A DNA stretch of 40,708 bases. Source: Przondovirus NAN33P2. The stretch lies in sequence record OZ035820.1, one strand, 5' to 3'. A program made the translations under genes and the position numbers. The notes under the pieces were generated by a model. The model was not told where the DNA came from and ran no database searches. It saw nothing but the letters and a program-made list of their open reading frames with translations. This document shows, one piece after another, positions 1-40,530 of this stretch. The first letter of the stretch is position 1; the number at the start of each line of letters is the position of its first letter.

Positions 1-26
1 ACTGGAAGAAAGCTAATAAGGAGTAA
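1..26 (+). CDS. gp17.5: 3' end of holin gene 17.5, continuing from 40531..40708 across the circular junction
   Basis: Reading frame from ATG 40531 continues through the window end into positions 1-23 (...DKII|DWKKANKE) with TAA at 24-26; C-terminus matches the recalled T7 gp17.5 ending DWKKANKE. Confidence 0.8.
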
Positions 27-29
27 CAT

Positions 30-287
30 ATGGACCTGATTAAGTTCCTCGAAATGTTAGACACTGAGATGGCTCAGCAGATGCTCATGGACCTGAAGAA
101 TCCAGAGAAGCGGACCCCTCAGCTGTACAACGCCATTGGTAAACTACTGGAGCGTCATAAGTTCCAAATCTCTAAGCTGACCCCTGACGTTAACATCTTG
201 GGCGGACTGGCTGAGGGTCTGGAGGCTTATAACTCCAAGGTGGGTGCTGATGGTCTGACAGATGACGATAAGTTCACCCTACAGTGA
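30..287 (+). CDS. gp18: Terminase small subunit (DNA maturation protein A)
   Basis: 85 aa; TAAGGAG RBS before ATG; motifs FLEMLDT, SPQLYNAI, LLERHKFQI and PDVNILGGLA match recalled T7 gp18. Confidence 0.85.
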   Translation: MDLIKFLEMLDTEMAQQMLMDLKNPEKRTPQLYNAIGKLLERHKFQISKLTPDVNILGGLAEGLEAYNSKVGADGLTDDDKFTLQ

Positions 288-290
288 TAT

Positions 291-325
291 ACTCAAGGTA
301 CTACTATATGTAGTGCCTTTATGGA
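291..325 (+). promoter_or_regulatory. RNase III-type processing hairpin (R18.5-like)
   Basis: ACTCAAGG...hairpin...CCTTTATGG element between gene 18 and 18.5; one of five copies of a conserved family; resembles recalled T7 R0.3 (ACTCAAGGG...CCCTTTATGA). Confidence 0.55.
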
Positions 326-383
326 TGTCATTGCACTACGCTAGGCGTTCCTACGTGAAATCTGAGAAACAACGGGAGGCATT

Positions 384-830
384 ATGCTGGAGTTCACAAA
401 GAGAATCGTCCCGTATCTTGTGGCTATCATGGTGTTTGCCTTCGGGTGGCACTTGGGGACACAGTCTACGGACGCCAAATGGAAGGAGGAAGTACAGAAT
501 GAGTACGTTAAGAAGCAAACGGCTAGAGCTGAAACTCAGAAAGCGATTGACGCAGTATCGGCTAAGTACCAAGCAGACCTTGAGGGGCTGGAGGGCAGCA
601 CTGATAGGATTATTGCTGATTTGCGTAGCGACAATAAGCGGCTGCGCATCAAAGTCAAACCTACCAGTGTCGCCGCAGGACCAGACGGTCGATGCCTCAT
701 TGATGGTTCCGTCGAACTACACGAAGCAACTGCTCGAAGTCTTATCGCAATAACCCAGAAGGCTGACCTCAAAGAGAAGGCCCTACAGGACACAATTCGT
801 AAGCTGCAAGGGAAAGGAGGTGAACATTGA
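384..830 (+). CDS. gp18.5: i-spanin (Rz-like lysis protein)
   Basis: 148 aa; N-terminal TM helix ([15 protein letters not shown]) then coiled-coil; strong similarity to recalled T7 gp18.5 (MLEF...DAKWK...[10 protein letters not shown]). Confidence 0.85.
499..753 (+). CDS. gp18.7: o-spanin (Rz1-like outer-membrane lipoprotein), embedded in +1 frame within 18.5
   Basis: 84-aa ORF wholly inside gene 18.5 in another frame; GGAGGAAG RBS; signal-like hydrophobic stretch ending in lipobox-like ISGC; typical embedded Rz1 architecture. Exact start uncertain. Confidence 0.6.
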   Translation: MSTLRSKRLELKLRKRLTQYRLSTKQTLRGWRAALIGLLLICVATISGCASKSNLPVSPQDQTVDASLMVPSNYTKQLLEVLSQ

Positions 831-2584
831 GTAACTCTCAGCAAGCCAAGAACGCCTTAATCATTGCGCAACTGAAGGGTGACTTTGTCGCCTTTCTCTT
901 CGTGCTCTGGAAGGCCCTGAACCTGCCGGAACCAACCAAGTGTCAAATCGACATGGCCAAGTGTCTGGCAGACCCAAAGAACAAGAAGTTTATCCTTCAG
1001 GCTTTCCGTGGTATCGGGAAGTCGTTCATCACGTGTGCGTTCGTAGTGTGGACCCTATGGCGTGACCCTCAGTTAAAGATACTGATTGTCTCAGCCTCGA
1101 AGGAACGTGCGGACGCTAACTCCATCTTCATCAAGAACATCATCGACTTGTTGCCTTTCCTGAGTGAGCTTAAGCCTCGCCCCGGTCAGCGTGACTCCGT
1201 GATTAGCTTCGATGTAGGCCCTGCCAAGCCAGACCACAGCCCGTCAGTTAAGTCTGTGGGTATTACGGGTCAGCTTACTGGTAGCCGTGCCGATATCATC
1301 ATTGCGGATGACGTGGAGATTCCCGGTAACTCTGCAACACAAGGTGCCCGAGAGAAACTCTGGACGTTGGTTCAGGAGTTCGCAGCACTGTTGAAACCTC
1401 TGCCGACTAGCCGTGTTATCTATCTGGGTACCCCTCAGACCGAGATGACGCTCTACAAGGAACTTGAGGACAACCGTGGGTACTCGACGATTATCTGGCC
1501 TGCACAGTATCCTCGCTCCAAAGAGGAAGACCTGTACTATGGCGACCGTCTGGCCCCAATGCTTCGTAGTGAGTACGATGAGGACAAAGAGGGTCTCAGC
1601 AGTCAACCTACTGACCCGGTTCGATTTGACTCCATGGACCTTCAGGAACGTGAGGTGGAATACGGCAAGGCTGGCTATACTCTCCAGTTCATGCTCAACC
1701 CGAACCTCAGTGACGCCGAGAAGTACCCGCTACGCCTCCGTGACGCTATCGTGTGCGGTCTACAGGCGGACAAGGCCCCAATGCATTACCAGTGGTTGCC
1801 GAACCGTCAGAACCGCAATGAGGAGCTTCCTAACGTGGGCATGAAGGGTGACGAGATTTACTCCTTCCATACAGCCTCCAGTAACACTGGTGCGTATCAG
1901 GGTAAGATTCTGGTCATTGACCCAAGTGGTCGCGGTAAGGATGAAACTGGCTGGTGCGTGCTGTACACCCTCAACGGTTACATCTACTTGATGGACGCTG
2001 GCGGTACCCGTGGTTACGAAGAGAAGTCCCTTGAGTTCCTCGCTAAGAAAGCCAAACAGTGGCAGGTGCAGACTGTGGTCTTCGAGAGTAACTTCGGTGA
2101 CGGTATGTTCGGTAACGTGTTCCAGCCTGTGCTCCTGAAGCATCATCCGGCACAACTCGAGGAGATTCGTGCTCGTGGCATGAAAGAGGTACGTATCTGC
2201 GATACCCTTGAGCCTGTACTGGCAAGTCACCGCTTGGTCATCCGTGATGAGGTTATCCGTCAGGACTACCAGACTGCACGCGATGCGGACGGTAAGCACG
2301 CCCTTAAGTACAGCCTGTTCTACCAGATGACCCGTATGAGTCGTGAGAAGGGCGCTGTGGCACACGATGACCGACTTGATGCACTAGCATTGGGTGTCGA
2401 GTTCCTACGTGCTACGATGCAGCAGGACGCTGTGAAGATAGAGTCTGAGGTACTTCTGGAGTTCTTGGAGCACCACATGGAGAAGCCCCTTAGTAACGTC
2501 TCCCAGTTCAAGGCCACCAGCAGCAACGGTGTGGACATCCGCTGGGAAGACGACGGGGATGATTCTATGTTCATCGCATGGTGA
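827..2584 (+). CDS. gp19: Terminase large subunit (DNA maturation protein B)
   Basis: 585 aa; near-identical in long stretches to recalled T7 gp19 ([37 protein letters not shown]). Start appears to be TTG at 827, 5 nt after GGAGGT and overlapping the 18.5 stop. Confidence 0.9.
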
Positions 2585-2664
2585 TTATGCAGGGATTGTG
2601 CATAAGGATTCATTAGGCCACGGAAGGCCACTTCAGGAAAACTTCAGGCATAACAGACACTTGG

Positions 2665-2687
2665 AATTAGGTAGCACTATAGGGAGA
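2665..2687 (+). promoter_or_regulatory. Phage RNAP promoter (phiOR-like)
   Basis: AATTAGGTAGCACTATAGGGAGA, 23-mer collinear with the T7 promoter -17..+6; position after gene 19 matches T7 phiOR. Confidence 0.75.
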
Positions 2688-2828
2688 GACCCCTAAAGAC
2701 TTACTATAAGACTACTTAAAGTTTCATTCATATAGTTATGCACTATAGGTCTCCTCTATGAGAGAGGGTAGTAATGATAATATCACCCTCTAACTATAAG
2801 ACACTAAGAGCTAACACAAGGAGGACCT

Positions 2829-2978
2829 ATGCGCTTACTGTTAACCTTACTGCGCCATAGGACTACTTGGCGGTTTCTGCTGGTACTTGCTGGTGCCCTT
2901 GGGGCTTCACTGGTTACTCAGCAACAACTCGGTGGACTGGAGACTCTCGTGTGCTCTCTACTCGCTTGTAGCGATTAG
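2829..2978 (+). CDS. Small hypothetical protein at the gene 19.5 position
   Basis: 49-aa ORF (MRLLLTLLRH...LACSD) preceded by AAGGAGG; same size and position as T7 gene 19.5; sequence homology not verified. Confidence 0.35.
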   Translation: MRLLLTLLRHRTTWRFLLVLAGALGASLVTQQQLGGLETLVCSLLACSD

Positions 2979-3161
2979 GGTCTTCCTTACGCGCTAGGGA
3001 TTCCGTAGTGATGCTTATCAGCATACACCACTCCATCCCTCTACAGTCAATACTTAAAGTTAACCTTAGGTGATTCGCTGGTCTACCTACGGGTCTATGC
3101 AATGACCTGAGGACTACCTGAGGTTACCTTTAAGAATTTTACATAAAGTTCTGAGTGTACA

Positions 3162-3342
3162 TCTCACAGTTTAAACTTTTGGTTATCCCCCCGGTACCCT
3201 CTCAGTCCACCCAAAGTAACCATGGGGCCACCCTAAACCTTCGGTTTAACCTTAGGTCGGTACCTTGGGAATCCTGAGGTGATACTATATGTTGTGGTGA
3301 GGGTGACTCAATGACGCTATATGTTGATGCCTCTGTGTCCCT
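3162..3342 (+). repeat. Terminal repeat region of the linear virion DNA (one copy in this circular assembly); boundaries approximate
   Basis: Begins with TCTCACAGT, the recalled first bases of the T7 genome, and ends at CCTCTGTGTCCCT, resembling the recalled end of the T7 terminal repeat (CTCTGTGTCCCT); flanked on both sides by short-repeat arrays. Confidence 0.45.
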
Positions 3343-3576
3343 ATCTGTTGGGCCTCTTTAAGTATACACCTGAGGTTAGACCTGAGGTCATCCATTGACG
3401 CTATGCCTTAGGTTAACCGTTTGACTAACGTTTAGCAGTGACTGTTAGTAGGTCACATAGAGTGATCAATCAAGTATCTCGTTTAGCAGTCCCTGAGACA
3501 CTGAGAGCGGGACAATATGGGTATCAGTGAGTCATTACTATAAGGGCTATCGGTGGTCAGTGTCAACACCGTAATC

Positions 3577-3599
3577 AATTAGGTATCACTATAAGGAGA
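3577..3599 (+). promoter_or_regulatory. Phage RNAP promoter variant (phiOL-like)
   Basis: AATTAGGTATCACTATAAGGAGA; carries the same TATAAGGAGA variant as recalled T7 phiOL and lies just upstream of the host-type early promoters. Confidence 0.55.
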
Positions 3600-3679
3600 C
3601 ACTCTAAGTATTACTACGAGACCATTACCAATAAGAACACTATCACTATAGGTCTAACTAAAAGTTTTAACTTTAAGTG

Positions 3680-3715
3680 TTGACATTCAGATTCCGTTAT
3701 GAGACATTAGCAACC
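3680..3715 (+). promoter_or_regulatory. Candidate host sigma70 early promoter (A1-like)
   Basis: Perfect -35 TTGACA at 3680-3685; -10 is poor (GACATT or ACATTA at 17-18 bp spacing); position about 86 bp after phiOL parallels T7 A1. Confidence 0.3.
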
Positions 3716-3812
3716 GTTGAGAGACACAACGTCACCAACGACCAGACAATACCACGAGTTATCTGGTTAGACTGAGGGTCTCAAGTAGCTATCAACCGGC
3801 ATACGAAAATGG

Positions 3813-3841
3813 TTGACTCAACGATGAACAAGTAGTAAGAT
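3813..3841 (+). promoter_or_regulatory. Host sigma70 early promoter (A2/A3-like)
   Basis: TTGACT (3813-3818), 17-bp spacer, TAAGAT (3836-3841); resembles recalled T7 A2 (-10 TAAGAT). Confidence 0.55.
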
Positions 3842-4009
3842 GCACCACAGATTCACCGCTCTTTAACAATATGGATTAGTCAAAGCTGATATGTACACCA
3901 TGACATTAGTGTTTAACTAGTGGTTACATTCAGGTCTCTGGCAAGGTACGTCCTGTCACCCTGAGAGTAGCCACCTTGATAACCACTAATCAACTGAAGG
4001 ATATACATT

Positions 4010-4477
4010 ATGATTTTCACGAAAGAACCAGCCAACAAAGTATTCGTATTCGTTACCGCATACCGTGGCCATGAGTCGCAGGAAGTAAACGAGAAGATGC
4101 TCAAGGGTCTCATTAAGACCATTCGCACCTATCCGGGTGCATACGGCAACATTCGTGACGAGAACGTGCAAGGCTGCTTTAAGGAAGATGGTATGCCTGC
4201 GGCAACACAAGAACGCACGCTCAAGGTCGAATGTACTGAGAAGCAAGCCGCAGAGTTGACATGGCTGGCCTGTAAGACCTACTCGCAGGATGCCGTGCTG
4301 GTGGTGAACTCACAGACCCATACAGCAGCTCTGTGGTCTATTGAGGATGTAGGCGAGTATCCACAGGTCTACCCACGCTTGAAAGAGGTGTCCTTAGGTG
4401 GCACGCTGCAACAAGTGGATGCACCAAAGGGAGAATGCTATTCAGTCATCAACGGGCAGTACTGGGAGGTGGTGTAA
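4010..4477 (+). CDS. gp0.3: S-adenosylmethionine lyase / SAMase (anti-restriction), T3 gene 0.3 type
   Basis: 155 aa; first early gene; N-terminus MIFTKEPAN and internal QTHTA match recalled T3 SAMase; RBS GAAGGA. Confidence 0.7.
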   Translation: MIFTKEPANKVFVFVTAYRGHESQEVNEKMLKGLIKTIRTYPGAYGNIRDENVQGCFKEDGMPAATQERTLKVECTEKQAAELTWLACKTYSQDAVLVVNSQTHTAALWSIEDVGEYPQVYPRLKEVSLGGTLQQVDAPKGECYSVINGQYWEVV

Positions 4478-6279: not shown

Positions 6280-9000
6280 ATGAACGCATTAAACATTGCA
6301 CGTAATGACTTCTCAGAGATTGAACTGGCCGCTATCCCGTATAATATCCTCAGCGAGCACTATGGGGACAAGCTGGCACGCGAGCAGCTGGCACTGGAGC
6401 ATGAAGCGTACGAGCTGGGCGAGCAGCGTTTCCTGAAGATGCTGGAACGTCAGGTGAAAGCTGGTGAGTTCGCTGACAACGTGGCTGCTAAGCCGCTGGT
6501 CCTAACGTTGCACCCGCAGCTGACCAAGCGTATTGACGACTGGAAGGAGGAGCAGGCAAACGCACGCGGTAAGAAACCTCGCGCATACTACCCGATTACG
6601 CACGGTGTGTCCTCAGAGTTGGCCCTCAGTATGGGCGCTGAGGTTCTCAAAGAGAAGCGTGGAGTGTCCAGTGAGGCAATCGCACTGCTCACCATTAAGG
6701 TGGTCTTAGGGACGCTCACAGACGCCGCAAAGGCCACAATCCAGCAGGTGTCCTCACAGTTAGGCAAGGCCCTTGAGGATGAGGCCCGCTTCGGTCGTAT
6801 CCGTGAGCAGGAAGCCGCATACTTCAAGAAGAACGTAGCGGACCAGCTGGACAAGCGCGTAGGCCACGTGTACAAGAAGGCTTTCATGCAGGTCGTCGAG
6901 GCCGATATGATATCCAAAGGGATGCTGGGCGGGGACAACTGGGCGAGCTGGAAAACTGACGAGCAGATGCACGTAGGGACCAAGCTGCTGGAGCTACTTA
7001 TCGAGGGAACTGGTCTGGTGGAAATGACCAAGAACAAGATGGCCGATGGCTCCGATGATGTGACCAGTATGCAGATGGTCCAGCTGGCTCCGGCCTTTGT
7101 GGAACTCCTGAGCAAGCGAGCGGGCGCACTCGCAGGTATCAGCCCGATGCACCAACCGTGCGTAGTCCCTCCGAAACCTTGGGTGGAGACCGTAGGCGGT
7201 GGCTACTGGTCAGTCGGTCGTCGCCCGCTGGCACTGGTTCGTACCCACTCCAAGAAGGCACTGCGCCGCTACGCAGACGTGCACATGCCAGAGGTATACA
7301 AAGCGGTAAACCTCGCGCAAAACACACCGTGGAAGGTGAACAAGAAGGTGTTGGCGGTAGTCAATGAGATTGTTAACTGGAAGCACTGCCCGGTGGCTGA
7401 CGTTCCAGCGATTGAACGTGAAGAGTTACCACCGCGCCCGGACGATATCGACACCAACGAGGTGGCACGTAAGGCATGGCGCAAGGAGGCCGCGGCGGTC
7501 TACCGTAAGGACAAGGCCCGCCAGTCTCGCCGTTTGTCGATGGAGTTCATGGTCGCACAGGCCAACAAGTTCGCTAACCACAAGGCCATCTGGTTCCCGT
7601 ATAACATGGACTGGCGCGGGCGTGTGTACGCTGTGAGCATGTTCAACCCGCAGGGTAACGACATGACCAAGGGTATGCTGACGCTGGCCAAGGGTAAGCC
7701 GATTGGTCTAGACGGGTTCTACTGGCTGAAGATTCATGGTGCAAACTGTGCAGGCGTCGACAAGGTTCCCTTCCCTGAGCGCATCAAGTTCATCGAAGAG
7801 AACGAGGGCAACATTCTGGCGAGTGCAGCTGACCCGCTGAATAACACTTGGTGGACACAGCAAGATTCACCGTTCTGCTTCTTAGCGTTCTGCTTCGAGT
7901 ACGCAGGCGTTAAACACCACGGCCTGAATTACAACTGCTCGCTGCCTCTGGCGTTCGATGGATCATGCTCTGGGATTCAGCACTTCAGCGCAATGCTCCG
8001 CGATTCCATCGGTGGCCGTGCGGTAAACCTGCTGCCATCTGATACCGTGCAGGATATCTACAAGATTGTGGCCGATAAGGTCAACGAGGTGCTCCAGCAG
8101 CACGCTGTCAACGGGTCTCAAACGGTGGTCGAGCAGATTGCCGACAAGGAGACTGGTGAGTTCCGCGAGAAGGTAACGCTGGGTGAGTCCGTACTTGCTG
8201 CGCAGTGGCTGCAATATGGTGTTACCCGCAAGGTGACTAAGCGTTCGGTAATGACGTTGGCGTATGGTTCCAAAGAGTTTGGCTTCCGCCAGCAAGTTCT
8301 TGAGGATACCATTCAGCCAGCTATTGACAACGGCGAGGGCTTGATGTTTACGCACCCTAACCAAGCGGCTGGCTATATGGCTAAGCTGATTTGGGACGCT
8401 GTGACCGTGACCGTAGTGGCCGCTGTCGAGGCAATGAATTGGCTGAAGTCTGCCGCTAAACTGCTGGCCGCTGAAGTCAAGGACAAGAAGACCAAAGAGG
8501 TGCTCCGTAAGCGCTGCGCAATCCACTGGGTAACACCAGACGGCTTCCCGGTGTGGCAGGAATACCACAAGCGAGATCAAGCGCGCCTGAAGCTGACGTT
8601 CTTGGGTCAGGCCAACGTGTTCATGACGTACAACAAAGGGGAAGCCAAAGAGATTGACGCACATAAGCAGGAGTCAGGAATCGCTCCTAACTTTGTGCAC
8701 TCACAGGATGGTAGTCACCTGCGCATGACCGTAGTGCACGCCAACGAGGTCTACGGGATTGACTCCTTCGCGCTCATTCATGACTCCTTCGGGACCATTC
8801 CAGCAGACGCTGGGAATCTCTTTAAGGCAGTCCGTGAGACGATGGTCAAGACCTACGAGGATAACGATGTAATCGCTGACTTTTATGACCAGTTCGCTGA
8901 CCAGCTGCACGAGTCTCAACTGGACAAAATGCCTGCTGTCCCGGCCAAAGGTGACCTGAATCTGCGCGATATCTTAGAGTCTGACTTCGCGTTCGCCTAA
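6280..9000 (+). CDS. gp1: Single-subunit DNA-dependent RNA polymerase
   Basis: 906 aa; collinear with recalled T7 RNAP (MN..NIA.NDFS.IELAAIP, RGKKP, PFCFLAFCFEYAG, HDSFGT, final FAFA); about 20 extra residues in the N-terminal domain; length equals my recollection for K11 RNAP. Confidence 0.95.
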   Translation: MNALNIARNDFSEIELAAIPYNILSEHYGDKLAREQLALEHEAYELGEQRFLKMLERQVKAGEFADNVAAKPLVLTLHPQLTKRIDDWKEEQANARGKKPRAYYPITHGVSSELALSMGAEVLKEKRGVSSEAIALLTIKVVLGTLTDAAKATIQQVSSQLGKALEDEARFGRIREQEAAYFKKNVADQLDKRVGHVYKKAFMQVVEADMISKGMLGGDNWASWKTDEQMHVGTKLLELLIEGTGLVEMTKNKMADGSDDVTSMQMVQLAPAFVELLSKRAGALAGISPMHQPCVVPPKPWVETVGGGYWSVGRRPLALVRTHSKKALRRYADVHMPEVYKAVNLAQNTPWKVNKKVLAVVNEIVNWKHCPVADVPAIEREELPPRPDDIDTNEVARKAWRKEAAAVYRKDKARQSRRLSMEFMVAQANKFANHKAIWFPYNMDWRGRVYAVSMFNPQGNDMTKGMLTLAKGKPIGLDGFYWLKIHGANCAGVDKVPFPERIKFIEENEGNILASAADPLNNTWWTQQDSPFCFLAFCFEYAGVKHHGLNYNCSLPLAFDGSCSGIQHFSAMLRDSIGGRAVNLLPSDTVQDIYKIVADKVNEVLQQHAVNGSQTVVEQIADKETGEFREKVTLGESVLAAQWLQYGVTRKVTKRSVMTLAYGSKEFGFRQQVLEDTIQPAIDNGEGLMFTHPNQAAGYMAKLIWDAVTVTVVAAVEAMNWLKSAAKLLAAEVKDKKTKEVLRKRCAIHWVTPDGFPVWQEYHKRDQARLKLTFLGQANVFMTYNKGEAKEIDAHKQESGIAPNFVHSQDGSHLRMTVVHANEVYGIDSFALIHDSFGTIPADAGNLFKAVRETMVKTYEDNDVIADFYDQFADQLHESQLDKMPAVPAKGDLNLRDILESDFAFA

Positions 9001-9033: not shown

Positions 9034-9098
9034 CTTCGAATGGCCGAGGGTTCCATTACTTAAAGTCTTAACTTAAAGAATACTTAAAGAGGCACACC

Positions 9099-21012: not shown

Positions 21013-21047
21013 TTATTACTTAAAGATTACTTAAAGAGGAGACTCAA

Positions 21048-36389: not shown

Positions 36390-38921
36390 ATGGACCAAGA
36401 AATTAAAACAGTCATCCAGTACCCCACAGGGTCCACTGAGTTCGACATCCCGTTCGACTACCTGTCCCGTCGCTTCGTCAGAGTGTCTCTGGTCTCTGAG
36501 GATTCCAGAAGACTGCTGAGTAACATCACGGAGTACCGCTACGTCTCCAAGACCAGAATCAAACTACTGGTTTCTACTGAAGGTTTCGACCGTGTTGAGA
36601 TTCGTCGGTTTACCTCAGCCTCTGAGCGAATTGTTGACTTCAATGATGGCTCTGTGCTGCGAGCAACAGACCTTAACGTATCACAGCTACAGTCGGCGCA
36701 TATTGCTGAAGAAGCCCGTGACGCAGCCCTGCTGGCCATGCCTCAGGACGACGCAGGTAACCTCGATGCACGCAGTCGCCGTATCGTTAACTTGGCTCCC
36801 GGTATTGACGGCACTGACGCTATCAATAAGGACCAGTTAGATTCAACGCTGGGTGAGGCTGGTGGTATCCTTTCTGATATGAAAGAAGTACAGAAGGAAA
36901 CCTATGACTACATCGAGAAGCTCGGTGACGACACTTCGATTGTCCGTGGGGTAACTTGGGTGTACAACCAAGGGTCTGCCGTTGGTGGAGAGACTACGGT
37001 CCTCGTCGATAAACCTACCCGCACACTTGCCGTTCCTTACATTGAGATTAACGGTAGTCGCCAAGAGGTTGGGTATCACTTCTCGTTTGACATTGCCACC
37101 CAGATGATTACCTTGACGGAACCACTGGTTGCCGGGGATTTCCTGATGGCAATGACCACAGAGTCCAGTGTACCTCTGGAAGACCTTCTGGCCAACCCTA
37201 CTGGTGCCTCGGCTATTGGTACCTCCGATGGTCGAAACGTTCAGGCAAACATCGACGAGCTTCGCTCCGAGTTAGACTTCCTGAAAGACACGACGGTACT
37301 TGACGTTAGACGCTTTGGTGCTGTTGGTGATGGTATTGCAGATGATTACCCAGCGTTTCAGAAAGCGTGCATAGCCGCTAGTCAACTTGGTGGGGCAATA
37401 GTCCACGTACCGACTCCAAAGGTAAAATGGAAGATTGGATTCCCGGTTTACTTGTTCGACCGCACTTGGGTCCGTGGGACAGGCATCAACTGTATTGTCG
37501 AGTTCACTGACCCGCTGTATGCTCGCAAGTCCCGCTCTGGGTTCGTCATTGGGTCTGGCTACGAGCAGAACCGCGACAAGGCTATTCAATGTCTTAACGA
37601 TGGCACTTGGGCCACTACTGGTTCGGTGGTAGATAGGAACTTCGTTGAGTTGGACCGAGGTCAGTACGTTCGCGACAATCCGAGCAAGGTACAGTCGAGA
37701 CTGTGCCGAGTGTCCGGGATGTACCTGAAGGCTTCATATCCGAATGGTGCTACCCTGAAGGGTGGTTACGCAGTGTCTGGTGCCAACGCAGTAGACTCAG
37801 AGGTATTTGATATCTGGGGCGAAGGTTGGACTGAGATTATCAACTTCGGGTCTGACGTACCACCAGCTACACCAAGCTGTCACAACCTCCATGCGTACGA
37901 CATCACGTGTGTTGCACCTAACGACTACGAGACGTACTACAGTGCAGGATTCATTGCGAACTCTACAAGTTGCTCTATTGGCCGCTTCAAGCAGCTCAGG
38001 GCAATAGCTGACGGTTCTCCTCATGGTTCCTGTGGTTCCACGAACTACACCGAGTTCTGTTCGTTCTATGACATTGATGTGCCCAATCTTGGTCGTACTG
38101 CATCTTCTGAGGGTATCCTCGTGAACAACTCTAAGGGCGCGGTGACTCGTAACATCCGTATCGGGAACGCTAAGACGTGCGTGGCTGAATACTACACCAC
38201 TGGTGCGGGTATCTTCTACGACCGTAACCATCCGAACGTGTTCGACGGTATTCACGCTAACAACTGTGACAACGCGGTAGCTCTCCGCTCCAAGTTCTCA
38301 GTTTGGAAGAACGTGACGCAGACCAACTGTACCTATCACGTCTACTTCGGGACGACCAACGCACAAGCCTGTGTGGTCAAGTTCGTACCGGACACAATCG
38401 GTGGTGGTAATAACGTAGACATTCTGGACAGGCTCCGCGATAACGTTGTGACTGGCTGGCGTGTGCGCTCGCTCCACATCCGCCCCATCGCCTACCTACT
38501 GAACGACAAGTCAGTGTTGCGTAGCTGGGATGCTGGTAAGAACATCAAGGCTGAGAACGGTGTGGGATTCCAGTGGTTATTCCCTGTACCATCTACCATG
38601 CGTGCAATCACTCAGGTCAGCCAATGGTTTACCTTCGAGGTGGGTGCAGCGTCGGCCGGGACAGAGGTCAAGGTTCAGGTTCGCCGTATGTCAGCGTACA
38701 ACGGAGACGCCAACGAGCAGCCTGTAATCCTCTTTGAGAACAGCCGCAAGGCCTCTCTGGATACCGTACAGGCTACTAACATTGTGGCCAACTCCCCGGG
38801 TCTGGTCCTGACGTCCCCTACGGATGGACTGGCTAACGCTGTGGATGTCCTCGTGAGTGTTACGGCACCGACCGTTAACTTCAACATGAAAGAAGCTCGC
38901 ATCACGTATCTGGGCGACTAA
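36390..38921 (+). CDS. gp17: Tail fiber / tailspike: T7-gp17-like N-terminal anchor fused to a right-handed beta-helix depolymerase-like domain
   Basis: 843 aa; first 150 aa resemble the recalled T7 gp17 anchor (IKTV..Y, F.IPF.YL.R.FV.V.L, RLVDF.DGS.LRA.DLNV); the C-terminal part has a pectate-lyase-type signature ([20 protein letters not shown]) and a Gly/Asn/Thr-rich repetitive composition. Confidence 0.85.
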
Positions 38922-38934
38922 CTAAGGAGACAGT

Positions 38935-40521
38935 ATGTTAAACAAATTGAATCAACCTAAAGGCTCTACAATCGGTGTGCTCAAGGATGGGCGCACCATC
39001 CAAGAGGCAATCGACGAGCTGGAGAAGATTAAGACCCGCAACGTTGACCCTGAGCGCTTCCGTGAGACGTTGACGTCAAGTGACGATGAGGTATTCGAGA
39101 AGCTGTTCGCGTGGTTGGCTACTCAGTCAGACGTTGTGGGAACCTCAAGTTCTTCCTATATCACAGCCTTACCTCGCATGATTGAGCTTAGCGGTCGTAC
39201 CTATACGTTGACTAAGCGTCACGTGCTGGACGGCAACTTCGGCATTCAGAACGGCACCATCCTGATGTCAGGTGAGGGTGAGATTATCATGGGGCTCGAC
39301 GCTGGCACTAAGACTCGGCGGCACTTCCTTAAGTATGCACACTTCGAGTACATCGGGGAAACAGACCGTAGCACCTCTCTGGTCACCATGGCGCGGTGCT
39401 TCAACTCTGTGGTTCTGTTCTGTAACTTCATAGCTGGTGGCGATGCCGCTCGCAACAGGGCTCCACGTACACGTTACGGCCTGTTCGCAGGGTCCACCAG
39501 ATGCTGGGGCTTCCAGTTAATCGGTGGTGAGTATTATGGTGGCGACTGTGCGTTGCGTGTTGGACGCGCTAACGACCACACTGGGTTGACCATTCGTCCC
39601 GGTACTGTTCACCATTCTCGCGTTATCAATATGCTATTATGTAACCCAGCGGGTGCTGAGGTGTCTGGTTGTAACATTGAACACGCAGACAATGGTGCCA
39701 TCGGCCTAGGGATTACCTCCGGTACCAATACCTCAGGTAACGCAGCCCATGGGGTTCGCATCAATGGTGTGTACTTATACAACAACGGTAACGGCTCCAG
39801 CGGCTCAAACGTAGCACCTGCGAATATTCTCATTGGTAAGGACATTCCGGGCACCGAAGGTTGGGACCGCCCGGGCGAGTTGATTACGTCAAGCCGAAAC
39901 ACCGCGCACAGTATTACTGTGTCAGAGTGCTACATTGTAAGCCCAAACACAGAGAATGCCTGGCAGGTGAACGCCCTGTACGGTGTGTCCTTCGTGGACA
40001 ACAAAGTAGGCCTCAAAGGTGACGCTACGATTCACGGTGTGTACGACGGTACGTGTGCTAACTGCTGGGCTGTTGGAAACCGAGATCAAGGCGGTAAGGT
40101 ATTCCAGTTCTCCTCTACAGCAACCAACGCGATTCTGACTACCCGCAAAGGTAAGTGGACTCCGAAGATTATCGGTGAGGGTATGGCAGGTAACACTACA
40201 CTGAGTGCTTCTGGCGGCGCATACTCTCTGGATAATGGAATGGTAACCGTATCGTGCTTCGCAGTGGTAGACACTAAGGATCCTAACATGGCTGGGAACC
40301 TGAACATCAAACTCCCGGTAGCCTGTGAGGACCAGCAGCGAGGTGGTAACGGAATTTCTCTGACTAACATCCCCGGCGTATCGAGTCCTAACGGGAGTGT
40401 TATAATCATTGGGGATACCGCTCGAATCATGCTAGGGTCTGCGAGATTGCAGCCCGAGAACATCACAACAGGCACTGCTATCCACTTCTCAGTGTCATAC
40501 CCAGCCGATGTTAAGGTATAA
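38935..40521 (+). CDS. Second tailspike / putative depolymerase lacking the T7-type anchor
   Basis: 528-aa ORF with TAAGGAG RBS between gene 17 and holin 17.5; repetitive beta-helix-like composition (GNFGIQNGTILMSGEGEI, NGAIGLGITSGTNTSGNAAHGVRINGVYLYNNGNG); no gp17-like N-terminus. Confidence 0.65.
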   Translation: MLNKLNQPKGSTIGVLKDGRTIQEAIDELEKIKTRNVDPERFRETLTSSDDEVFEKLFAWLATQSDVVGTSSSSYITALPRMIELSGRTYTLTKRHVLDGNFGIQNGTILMSGEGEIIMGLDAGTKTRRHFLKYAHFEYIGETDRSTSLVTMARCFNSVVLFCNFIAGGDAARNRAPRTRYGLFAGSTRCWGFQLIGGEYYGGDCALRVGRANDHTGLTIRPGTVHHSRVINMLLCNPAGAEVSGCNIEHADNGAIGLGITSGTNTSGNAAHGVRINGVYLYNNGNGSSGSNVAPANILIGKDIPGTEGWDRPGELITSSRNTAHSITVSECYIVSPNTENAWQVNALYGVSFVDNKVGLKGDATIHGVYDGTCANCWAVGNRDQGGKVFQFSSTATNAILTTRKGKWTPKIIGEGMAGNTTLSASGGAYSLDNGMVTVSCFAVVDTKDPNMAGNLNIKLPVACEDQQRGGNGISLTNIPGVSSPNGSVIIIGDTARIMLGSARLQPENITTGTAIHFSVSYPADVKV

Positions 40522-40530
40522 GGAGGTATC

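What the first reader, a model, noticed from the sequence alone, without database searches (positions are those of the whole stretch)
2690..3600. Concatemer junction: terminal repeat and flanking short-repeat arrays
Positions 3162-3342 start with TCTCACAGT and end with CCTCTGTGTCCCT, resembling my recollection of the first and last bases of the T7 terminal repeat. On both sides are arrays of degenerate short repeats (ACTTAAAG/CATAAAG, AACCTTAGG at 3063, 3249, 3407; CCTGAGG at 3105, 3114, 3272, 3370, 3379; CTATATGTTG twice), analogous to T7 heptamer arrays. The virion DNA is therefore probably linear with ends near 3162 and 3342, and this window is a permuted circular assembly.
Basis: partly seen in the sequence, partly recalled or inferred. 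Interest (0 to 1): 0.45.

Follow-up and report, generated by a model that had tools for sequence, protein, structure and literature searches.

The report
T7-type phage genome-end junction

Summary
The window is a K11-like Klebsiella phage (genus Przondovirus, T7 group), assembled as a circle and opened inside the holin gene. Window 3162-3342 (181 bp) aligns base for base with the annotated direct terminal repeats (179-183 bp) of K11, Saitama, AttikonH3, KpV92 and others. At least 12 public records begin at the base equivalent to 3162. At least 11 end at the base equivalent to 3342. T7's own 160-bp repeat has the same first 9 and last 11 bases.

The layout matches the T7/K11 concatemer junction: terminase gene 19, promoter phiOR, gene 19.5, short-repeat array, terminal repeat, ATCTGTT (the T7 RNA polymerase class II pause signal), second short-repeat array, promoter phiOL, host promoters.

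The short repeats are real. Eight CCTKAGG copies, all on one strand, lie within 349 bp (P about 5e-10), mostly 10-13 bp apart.

The physical ends of this particular phage are inferred by homology, not shown, because no reads are available. Two relatives (PEA128, K30) carry discordant longer repeat annotations. The role of the short repeats is unresolved. The feature is already known; interest is low.

The parts
827..2584 (+). Gene 19, terminase large subunit. It is the trans-acting nuclease/ATPase that would cut at the repeat boundaries.
   Evidence: PHROG phrog_38, terminase large subunit, E = 7e-129. It is collinear with K11 gene 19.
30..287 (+). Gene 18, terminase small subunit (trans factor).
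   Evidence: phrog_1351, E = 3.6e-42.
2665..2687 (+). phiOR, the last phage-RNA-polymerase promoter. It reads rightward across the junction.
   Evidence: Positions 2667-2687 match the window's 21-nt promoter consensus with 0 mismatches. The site aligns to K11's annotated phiOR at 40503-40525.
2829..2978 (+). Gene 19.5 (49 aa), the last gene of the linear genome.
   Evidence: The translation is 46/49 identical to K11 gp19.5. phrog_2193, E = 7e-22.
3049..3161 (+). Left short-repeat array. It contains CTTAAAG 3053, CCTTAGG 3064, CCTACGG 3086, CCTGAGG 3106 and 3117, CTTTAAG 3128 and CATAAAG 3142. It forms an imperfect palindrome (arms 3049-3083 and 3104-3138) and ends in the conserved flank AGTTCTGAGTGTACA next to the left cut site.
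   Evidence: The array is nearly invariant in 13 relatives. The flank just before the repeat resembles T7's (CCTTTAA..CATAAA..TCTGAGTG).
3162..3342 (.). Direct terminal repeat, present here as a single collapsed copy. The virion left end is inferred at 3162 and the virion right end at 3342. Inside it are four ~12-bp-phased units: ACCTTCGG 3237, ACCTTAGG 3249, ACCTTGGG 3262 and CCTGAGG 3273.
   Evidence: Base-for-base alignment to annotated terminal repeats. Record starts and ends coincide with these positions. The first 9 and last 11 bases match T7's.
3343..3349 (+). ATCTGTT, the class II pause/termination signal for T7-type RNA polymerase ('CJ' site), immediately after the repeat.
   Evidence: It is the only occurrence in the window on either strand. 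T7 (nt 161) and K11 (nt 182) have it at the same position. K11's record marks 180-188 as 'concatemeric junction'. It is invariant in the 13 properly aligned relatives. The identity of the signal comes from 10.1101/2021.01.11.426313.
3356..3412 (+). Right short-repeat array: CTTTAAG 3356, CCTGAGG 3369 and 3381, CCTTAGG 3406. Copy number varies among relatives.
   Evidence: The number of units runs from about 2 (window) to about 6 (phi1_146042) in the alignment.
3537..3566 (-). Leftward sigma-70-like promoter (TTGACA-18-TATAGT), comparable to T7's leftward promoter A0.
   Evidence: Consensus scan, 11 of 12 matches. Both hexamers are conserved in the five relatives. T7's A0 (leftward) is annotated at nt 224. 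Function was not tested.
3577..3599 (+). phiOL, the first phage-RNA-polymerase promoter of the linear genome.
   Evidence: Two mismatches to the consensus. It aligns to K11's annotated phiOL at 479-501.
3681..3717 (+). First rightward host-RNA-polymerase early promoter.
   Evidence: It aligns to K11's annotated 'host RNAP promoter' at 581-617. A second one, at 3813-3841 (TTGACT-17-TAAGAT), was found by the scan and corresponds to K11 715-751.

Best explanation
Window 2665-3720 is the concatemer junction of a K11-like, T7-group Klebsiella phage, and 3162-3342 is its 181-bp direct terminal repeat.

In the virion the DNA is linear. It begins TCTCACAGTTTAAAC... at 3162, runs rightward around the 'circle', and ends ...CCTCTGTGTCCCT at 3342. 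The 181 bp therefore sit at both ends and the packaged molecule is 40708 + 181 = 40889 bp. The assembler merged the two copies and opened the contig inside the holin gene.

The mechanism is inferred by homology to T7. Replication gives head-to-tail concatemers with one repeat per junction. Phage RNA polymerase starting at phiOR (2665-2687) transcribes across the repeat and pauses at ATCTGTT (3343-3349), helped by the gp3.5 lysozyme. The gp18/gp19 terminase is recruited there. It cuts at the right boundary of the repeat to make a mature right end, packages that genome right to left, and cuts at the left boundary of the next repeat. The repeat is duplicated by repair synthesis, so both ends carry it.

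On infection the left end enters first, bringing phiOL and the host promoters.

The phased CCTKAGG/CTTAAAG units on both sides of and inside the repeat are most likely protein-binding or DNA-bending sites that help assemble the terminase complex. This last step is the weakest. The confidence given applies to the identification of the junction and the repeat boundaries, not to the proposed role of the short repeats.
For: Shown here:
- The phage is a przondovirus: 92.6% identity to K11 over 34.5 kb, and the closest record is NAN33P6 at 94.9%.
- The 181 bp align to the annotated terminal repeats of K11, Saitama, AttikonH3 and KpV92 with identical boundaries: TCTCACAGTTTA... at the start, and ...TGTGTCCCT followed by ATCTGTTGG at the end.
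- Twelve records begin at the 3162 equivalent. Eleven end at the 3342 equivalent, or one base beyond it in Saitama.
- T7 has the same boundary bases and the same ATCTGTT directly after the repeat.
- The element order gene 19, phiOR, gene 19.5, repeat, CJ, phiOL, host promoters matches K11's curated annotation and T7's.
- All trans factors are encoded: gp18, gp19, RNA polymerase, gp3 and gp3.5.
- The window ends join seamlessly in relatives.
- The short repeats are non-random, on one strand, and spaced 10-13 or 20-25 bp apart.

From the literature:
- Przondovirus repeats are 180-183 bp and were validated by primer walking; short-read assemblies drop one copy and open mid-genome (PMC10438801).
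- Phage Adeo has a 182-bp repeat (PMC12737672).
- ATCTGTT is the class II signal found at the T7 concatemer junction.
- gp18 recognises PacB and gp19 cuts at PacC (PMC9860248).
Against: - No reads or virion DNA are available, so the ends of this phage are inferred, not observed.
- Two relatives are annotated differently. PEA128 has a 282-bp repeat whose left boundary equals window 3062. K30 has a 393-bp repeat with the canonical left boundary but a right boundary beyond phiOL.
- A PhageTerm survey of 19 przondoviruses reported 133-215 bp.
- The single occurrence of ATCTGTT is not in itself significant: 68% of 7-mers of the same composition occur at most once on the + strand. Its meaning rests on position and conservation.
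- Nothing here shows that the short repeats bind protein. To my knowledge (recollection, not checked here) their role is unsettled even in T7.
- The right array varies in copy number, which argues against a strict requirement.
Confidence: 0.92

Rival explanations
1. The terminal repeat of this phage is longer than 181 bp. One boundary would be non-canonical: about 282 bp starting near 3062 as annotated for PEA128, or about 390 bp extending rightward past phiOL as annotated for K30.
For: The PEA128 record has exactly identical 282-bp ends beginning AACCTTAGGTGATTC, which equals window 3062. The K30 record has exactly identical 393-bp ends. PhageTerm gave 133-215 bp across 19 przondoviruses.
Against: Each outlier keeps one canonical boundary and stands alone. 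At least 12 records share the 3162 start and at least 11 share the 3342 end, including K11 and the primer-walked Oda and Tokugawa. The sequence on both sides of each canonical boundary is near-invariant in relatives (one-base variants in K30, PEA128 and RCIP0157) and largely shared with T7. How the PEA128 and K30 ends were determined is unknown; no paper was found for PEA128.
Confidence: 0.05
2. The genome is truly circular, or is packaged by a headful mechanism with circularly permuted ends, so there are no fixed termini and the resemblance to a terminal repeat is only inherited sequence.
For: The window closes on itself with no overlap and no second repeat copy. Several relatives are deposited as 'circular'.
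Against: The terminase subunits are T7-type. Close relatives have experimentally fixed ends with direct repeats. Collapse of the repeat and an arbitrary opening point are documented artefacts of short-read assembly for exactly this genus. 'Circular' labels in GenBank reflect assembler output.
Confidence: 0.01
3. The short repeats have no function of their own. They would be by-products of slippage or unequal recombination in a non-coding, AT-richer spacer, carried along beside the elements that matter (the two cut sites and the pause signal). This rival concerns only the role of the repeats and is compatible with the junction identification above.
For: Copy number in the right array differs freely among relatives, and one phage has a 12-bp duplication inside the repeat. 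The interior of the repeat is the least conserved part of the junction, with 58-66% identity bins at 3260-3279 and 3300-3319. The heptamer consensus differs from T7's.
Against: The left array 3049-3161 is nearly invariant across 13 relatives, as conserved as coding sequence. All 8 CCTKAGG copies lie on one strand with roughly one-helical-turn spacing. T7, though diverged in sequence, keeps arrays of an analogous heptamer in the same three places.
Confidence: 0.3

Closest known systems
Klebsiella phage K11 (Przondovirus K11, NC_011043): terminal repeat 1-180 and 41001-41181, 'concatemeric junction' 180-188, phiOL, phiOR, gene 19.5
   Same: The order of every element is the same. The boundary sequences match: TCTCACAGTTTA at the start and TGTGTCCCT|ATCTGTTGG at the end. 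The repeat is 181 bp by exact identity of the record ends. The left flank is near-identical.
   Different: The repeat is about 89% identical. The window has about 37 fewer bases in the right array and lacks two K11 insertions further right. The phage promoters differ at positions -10 to -8, and the RNA polymerase specificity-loop region differs with them.
Phage T7 concatemer junction (NC_001604): 160-bp terminal repeat, CJ class II pause site, flanking heptamer arrays, phiOR / gene 19.5 / phiOL / A0-A3
   Same: The first 9 and last 11 bases of the repeat are the same. ATCTGTT sits directly after the repeat. A similar flank (TCTGAGTG) lies before it. ACCTTCGGTT occurs inside the repeat. The gene and promoter layout is the same. 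Short heptamers are arrayed left of, inside and right of the repeat.
   Different: The repeat is 181 bp against 160 bp, with about 60% identity overall (115 of 191 aligned columns). The heptamer consensus is CCTKAGG here and CCTAAAG in T7, and there are far fewer copies on the right. The window has a 35-nt-arm imperfect palindrome left of the repeat that T7 lacks.
Przondoviruses with validated ends (Oda, Tokugawa; Saitama record NC_092456; Elek et al. 2023, PMC10438801)
   Same: The repeats are 180-183 bp and begin at the same sequence. One repeat copy is lost and the opening point is arbitrary in short-read assemblies.
   Different: Saitama's record counts one extra base (A) at the right boundary, because the next base happens to be identical. 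Saitama's repeat is 89.7% identical to the window's.

Membership tests
T7-group (Studiervirinae) direct terminal repeat / concatemer junction | The repeat lies between the right-end genes (19, 19.5) and the left-end early promoters and gene 0.3. | tested here: met
   Gene 19 is at 827-2584, gene 19.5 at 2829-2978, the repeat at 3162-3342, phiOL at 3577-3599, host promoters at 3681 and 3813, and the gene 0.3 homologue at 4010-4477.
T7-group (Studiervirinae) direct terminal repeat / concatemer junction | The boundaries are homologous to ends determined for relatives. | tested here: met
   At least 12 records start at the 3162 equivalent and at least 11 end at the 3342 equivalent. T7 has the same boundary bases. 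Primer-walking validation in the genus is reported in PMC10438801.
T7-group (Studiervirinae) direct terminal repeat / concatemer junction | The same sequence is physically present at both ends of linear virion DNA. | not testable with these tools
   Only the collapsed assembly is available. Reads or virion DNA are needed.
T7-group (Studiervirinae) direct terminal repeat / concatemer junction | T7-type terminase (gp18 and gp19) and a single-subunit RNA polymerase with gp3.5 lysozyme are encoded. | tested here: met
   PHROG hits for all of them. The RNA polymerase is 98% identical to K11's.
T7-group (Studiervirinae) direct terminal repeat / concatemer junction | The class II pause signal ATCTGTT lies on the transcribed strand directly after the repeat, downstream of phiOR. 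| tested here: met
   It is at 3343-3349, the only copy in the window. T7 and K11 have it at the same place. Pausing itself was not tested.
T7-type short-repeat arrays flanking the terminal repeat | There is a non-random cluster of a short oligomer on one strand, on both sides of and inside the repeat. | tested here: met
   Eight CCTKAGG copies, all on the + strand, lie in 349 bp (P = 4.7e-10), and no other 381-bp window has more than 2. The consensus differs from T7's CCTAAAG.
T7-type short-repeat arrays flanking the terminal repeat | The arrays have a function in packaging or DNA entry. | not testable with these tools
   No binding or deletion data exist. Conservation of the left array and copy-number variation of the right array point in opposite directions.
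Headful (pac) packaging with circular permutation | There are no fixed ends, and the terminase is of a headful type. | tested here: not met
   The terminase subunits match T7-type families. Relatives have fixed ends at conserved sequences.

The most novel reading that the evidence does not exclude
The short-repeat arrays may not be passive. The near-invariant left array, with its przondovirus-specific 35-nt-arm imperfect palindrome (3049-3138, absent from T7), and the helically phased CCTKAGG units could be the actual loading platform for the small terminase. Alternatively the palindrome could act as a fold-back primer for duplicating the terminal repeat. The natural variation in copy number of the right array among relatives would then tune packaging efficiency.
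Probability: 0.15. Interest if true: 0.35.

Novelty: already known. Interest (0 to 1): 0.08.

Why it matters
The practical value is in annotation. The deposited or assembled sequence should be re-opened at 3162 and given a second copy of 3162-3342 at its right end, making 40889 bp. That matters for synthetic rebooting, packaging-signal design and correct genome comparison of therapeutic Klebsiella phages. Several public relatives carry short 'hypothetical protein' genes drawn across this non-coding junction, and these should not be propagated. Biologically nothing new is implied: this is the textbook T7-type genome end, seen in one more member of a heavily sampled genus.

Tried and rejected
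- Tandem Repeats Finder found no arrays in 2400-4000. The repeats are interspersed, so 'tandem array' is the wrong description.
- Rfam found nothing in the whole window.
- The RNA leaders downstream of phiOR (2684-2830) and phiOL (3596-3700) fold no better than shuffles, with z = -0.10 and -0.40. There is no evidence for a structured RNA element.
- I asked whether the single copy of ATCTGTT reflects selection against it elsewhere. Dinucleotide shuffles expect 4.5 on both strands, but 7-mers of the same composition average only 1.2 on the + strand and 68% have at most 1. I dropped the depletion argument and kept only position and conservation.
- I asked whether the palindrome left of the repeat is a conserved T7-group feature. 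The T7 counterpart folds at z = -0.42 and has no long inverted repeat, so it is not conserved. Within przondoviruses the region is too invariant to show covariation.
- A literature search for pacB was swamped by 'PacBio'. No paper was found for PEA128.
- In the 15-sequence alignment the PEA128 row was mis-anchored on a TCTCACAG inside gene 19 and must be ignored. PEA128 is correctly aligned.
- No intrinsic terminator-like site lies in 2500-4100.

Full report
**What the window is.** The 40,708-base window is the whole genome of a T7-group phage of Klebsiella, genus Przondovirus. It aligns to phage K11 (NC_011043) over 34.5 kb at 92.6% identity, with all genes on one strand in T7 order. The nearest public record is Przondovirus NAN33P6, at 94.9% over 95% of the first 25 kb. 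The tail-spike region 36919-40519 has no K11 counterpart.

**The window is a circular assembly opened arbitrarily.** Joining its last 400 bases to its first 400 gives a sequence that 10 relatives carry as a single uninterrupted piece at 91-98% identity. That piece spans tail spike, holin, small terminase and spanin. The window was therefore opened inside the holin gene, and its ends share no overlap.

**Check of the observation.**
- Window 3162-3342 is 181 bp, begins TCTCACAGT and ends CCTCTGTGTCCCT.
- T7's repeat, computed from the identical ends of NC_001604, is 160 bp: TCTCACAGTGTA...TCTCTCTGTGTCCCT.
- The motif coordinates are off by 1-3 bases. One 'AACCTTAGG' is really GCCTTAGG.
- The clustering is real. 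CCTKAGG occurs 8 times on the + strand between 3064 and 3412 and never on the - strand there, against 0.26 expected from the rest of the genome (P = 4.7e-10). No other 381-bp window has more than 2.
- Counting the looser CCTNNGG, adjacent units are 10-13 or 20-25 bp apart, about one or two helical turns.
- CWTAAAG is less specific. It is over-represented across the whole genome, often just after phage promoters.
- The units are interspersed, not tandem.

**What it is.**
- I rebuilt the end-to-end junction of five relatives that were deposited as linear molecules with both repeat copies. K11, Saitama, AttikonH3 and KpV92 have exactly identical ends of 181, 181, 179 and 179 bp. Each starts TCTCACAGTTTA(C/A)ACTTTTG, ends ...GTGTCCCT, is preceded by AGTTCTGAGTGTACA and is followed by ATCTGTTGG.
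- The window aligns to these junctions without any shift at either boundary. Eight further relatives and K30 agree (the PEA128 row there is mis-anchored and should be ignored).
- The blastn HSP window 1-3342 to K11 37839-41181 stops on K11's last base.
- Ten more phage records start at the 3162 equivalent: IME1309, P07, P7501, GXKP01, KN4-1, KN1-1, Kund-ULIP54, Saitama, AttikonH3 and KpV92.
- Kp_Pokalde_002, Kp9, Poteet, KpV766, Adeo, P5054 and P19 end at the 3342 equivalent.
[quoted passage not shown] They also describe short-read assemblers deleting one copy and opening the contig mid-genome (PMC10438801). Phage Adeo is reported with 182 bp.

**Anatomy of the junction, left to right.**
- Gene 19, large terminase, 827-2584.
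- phiOR, 2665-2687: a perfect match to the window's promoter consensus, aligned to K11's annotated phiOR.
- Gene 19.5, 2829-2978: 46/49 identical to K11 gp19.5.
- A near-invariant left array, 3049-3161, which forms an imperfect palindrome.
- The repeat, 3162-3342, with four ~12-bp-phased ACCTTNGG/CCTGAGG units in its middle.
- ATCTGTT, 3343-3349.
- A right array, 3356-3412, whose unit number varies from about 2 to about 6 among relatives.
- A leftward sigma-70-like promoter, 3566 to 3537.
- phiOL, 3577-3599.
- Rightward host promoters at 3681 and 3813.
- The gene 0.3 homologue at 4010.

The K11 record, which is curated, labels its bases 180-188 (CTATCTGTT) 'concatemeric junction'. Conservation is highest at the two boundaries and in the left array, and lowest inside the repeat and in the right array.

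**How it most likely works.** This paragraph is inference by homology; nothing in it is shown for this phage.
- ATCTGTT is the strictly sequence-specific class II signal of T7 RNA polymerase. [quoted passage not shown]
- In T7 the polymerase-lysozyme complex pauses there and engages gp18/gp19 to start maturation and packaging (PMC3276506 citing Zhang and Studier 2004).
- gp18 recognises PacB and gp19 cuts at PacC (PMC9860248).
- The window encodes all of these proteins, has phiOR upstream, and has ATCTGTT at exactly the T7 and K11 position.
- From my own knowledge of T7: concatemers carry one repeat per junction, the second copy is made by repair synthesis during processing, packaging runs right to left, and the left end enters the cell first.
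- I therefore expect a 40,889-bp linear virion DNA running from 3162 around to 3342.

**Caveats.**
- No reads are available, so the ends are inferred.
- PEA128's record carries a 282-bp repeat that starts at the equivalent of window 3062. K30's carries a 393-bp repeat that runs past phiOL. A PhageTerm survey gave 133-215 bp. Each outlier keeps one canonical boundary, and I could not find how either was determined.
- The uniqueness of ATCTGTT is not statistically remarkable on its own.
- The function of the short repeats is open. The left array's invariance and the one-strand, phased arrangement suggest binding or bending sites. The right array's copy-number variation, and a 12-bp duplication inside the repeat of phage 066058, suggest tolerance and slippage.
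- The palindrome folds better than shuffles as single-stranded DNA (z = -2.95), but T7 has no counterpart.

**Comparison and novelty.** This is a member of the T7-group terminal-repeat and concatemer-junction class. Every defining feature that sequence can test is met; the physical duplication at the virion ends cannot be tested here. It differs from K11 only in detail: about 89% identity in the repeat, fewer right-array units, and a different promoter -10 to -8. It differs from T7 in repeat length, heptamer consensus and the palindrome. The feature is already known and annotated in close relatives. Interest is low; the main use is to re-orient and complete the genome record.

Noticed in passing
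window 6280-9000 (RNA polymerase residues 763-790), and promoters at 2667, 3579, 9013, 9660, 10187, 12567, 14235, 20980, 23411, 24485, 29042, 36328: The RNA polymerase is 98% identical to K11's, yet 8 of its 18 differences cluster in residues 763-790, the region that aligns with the T7 specificity loop. The window's promoters read TTAGGTAGCACTATAGGGAGA, whereas K11's phiOL and phiOR read TTAGGACACACTATA... and TTAGGACCCACTATA.... Promoter positions -10 to -8 and the loop appear to have changed together within one genus.
   Followed up: partly
window 3537-3566, minus strand: There is a leftward sigma-70-like promoter, TTGACA-18-TATAGT (11 of 12), between the repeat and phiOL. Both hexamers are conserved in relatives. 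It recalls T7's leftward promoter A0, whose role is unknown.
   Followed up: partly
window 3049-3083 and 3104-3138: An imperfect palindrome with 35-nt arms (77% complementary) lies just left of the terminal repeat. Its single-stranded DNA fold has z = -2.95. It is nearly invariant in przondoviruses and absent at the same place in T7.
   Followed up: partly
L003/L004 (PEA128, OR287812) and L013/L014 (K30, HM480846): Two relatives are deposited with longer terminal repeats (282 bp and 393 bp) than the 179-183 bp of the rest. Each shares only one canonical boundary. They are either real variants or artefacts of end determination.
   Followed up: partly
L018 (phage 066058) at the equivalent of window about 3240; window 3356-3412 compared with L020 (phi1_146042): Phage 066058 has a 12-bp duplication (GGTTTAACCTTN) inside its terminal repeat. 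The number of CCTGAGG-type units to the right of the repeat ranges from about 2 to about 6 among relatives, which suggests slippage.
   Followed up: no
L001 123-242 and 334-426; L017 257-349 and 400-537; L020 241-336 and 421-510: Several GenBank relatives annotate short 'hypothetical protein' genes across the terminal repeat and its flanks, on either strand. In the window the only ORF of 60 aa or more in this area is 2914-3102 on the minus strand, with a TTG start. These are probably spurious gene calls in non-coding DNA.
   Followed up: no
window 9059-9089 and 21019-21036: CTTAAAG is over-represented genome-wide (CWTAAAG 33 against 6.8 expected). It forms small clusters just downstream of the phage promoters at 9013 and 20980, so this motif is not specific to the genome ends.
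   Followed up: no
window 36919-40519: The distal tail-fibre/tail-spike region, including the 528-aa ORF 38935-40521, has no nucleotide match to K11, although the rest of the genome is 88-98% identical. This is probably the exchangeable capsule-specificity module.
   Followed up: no
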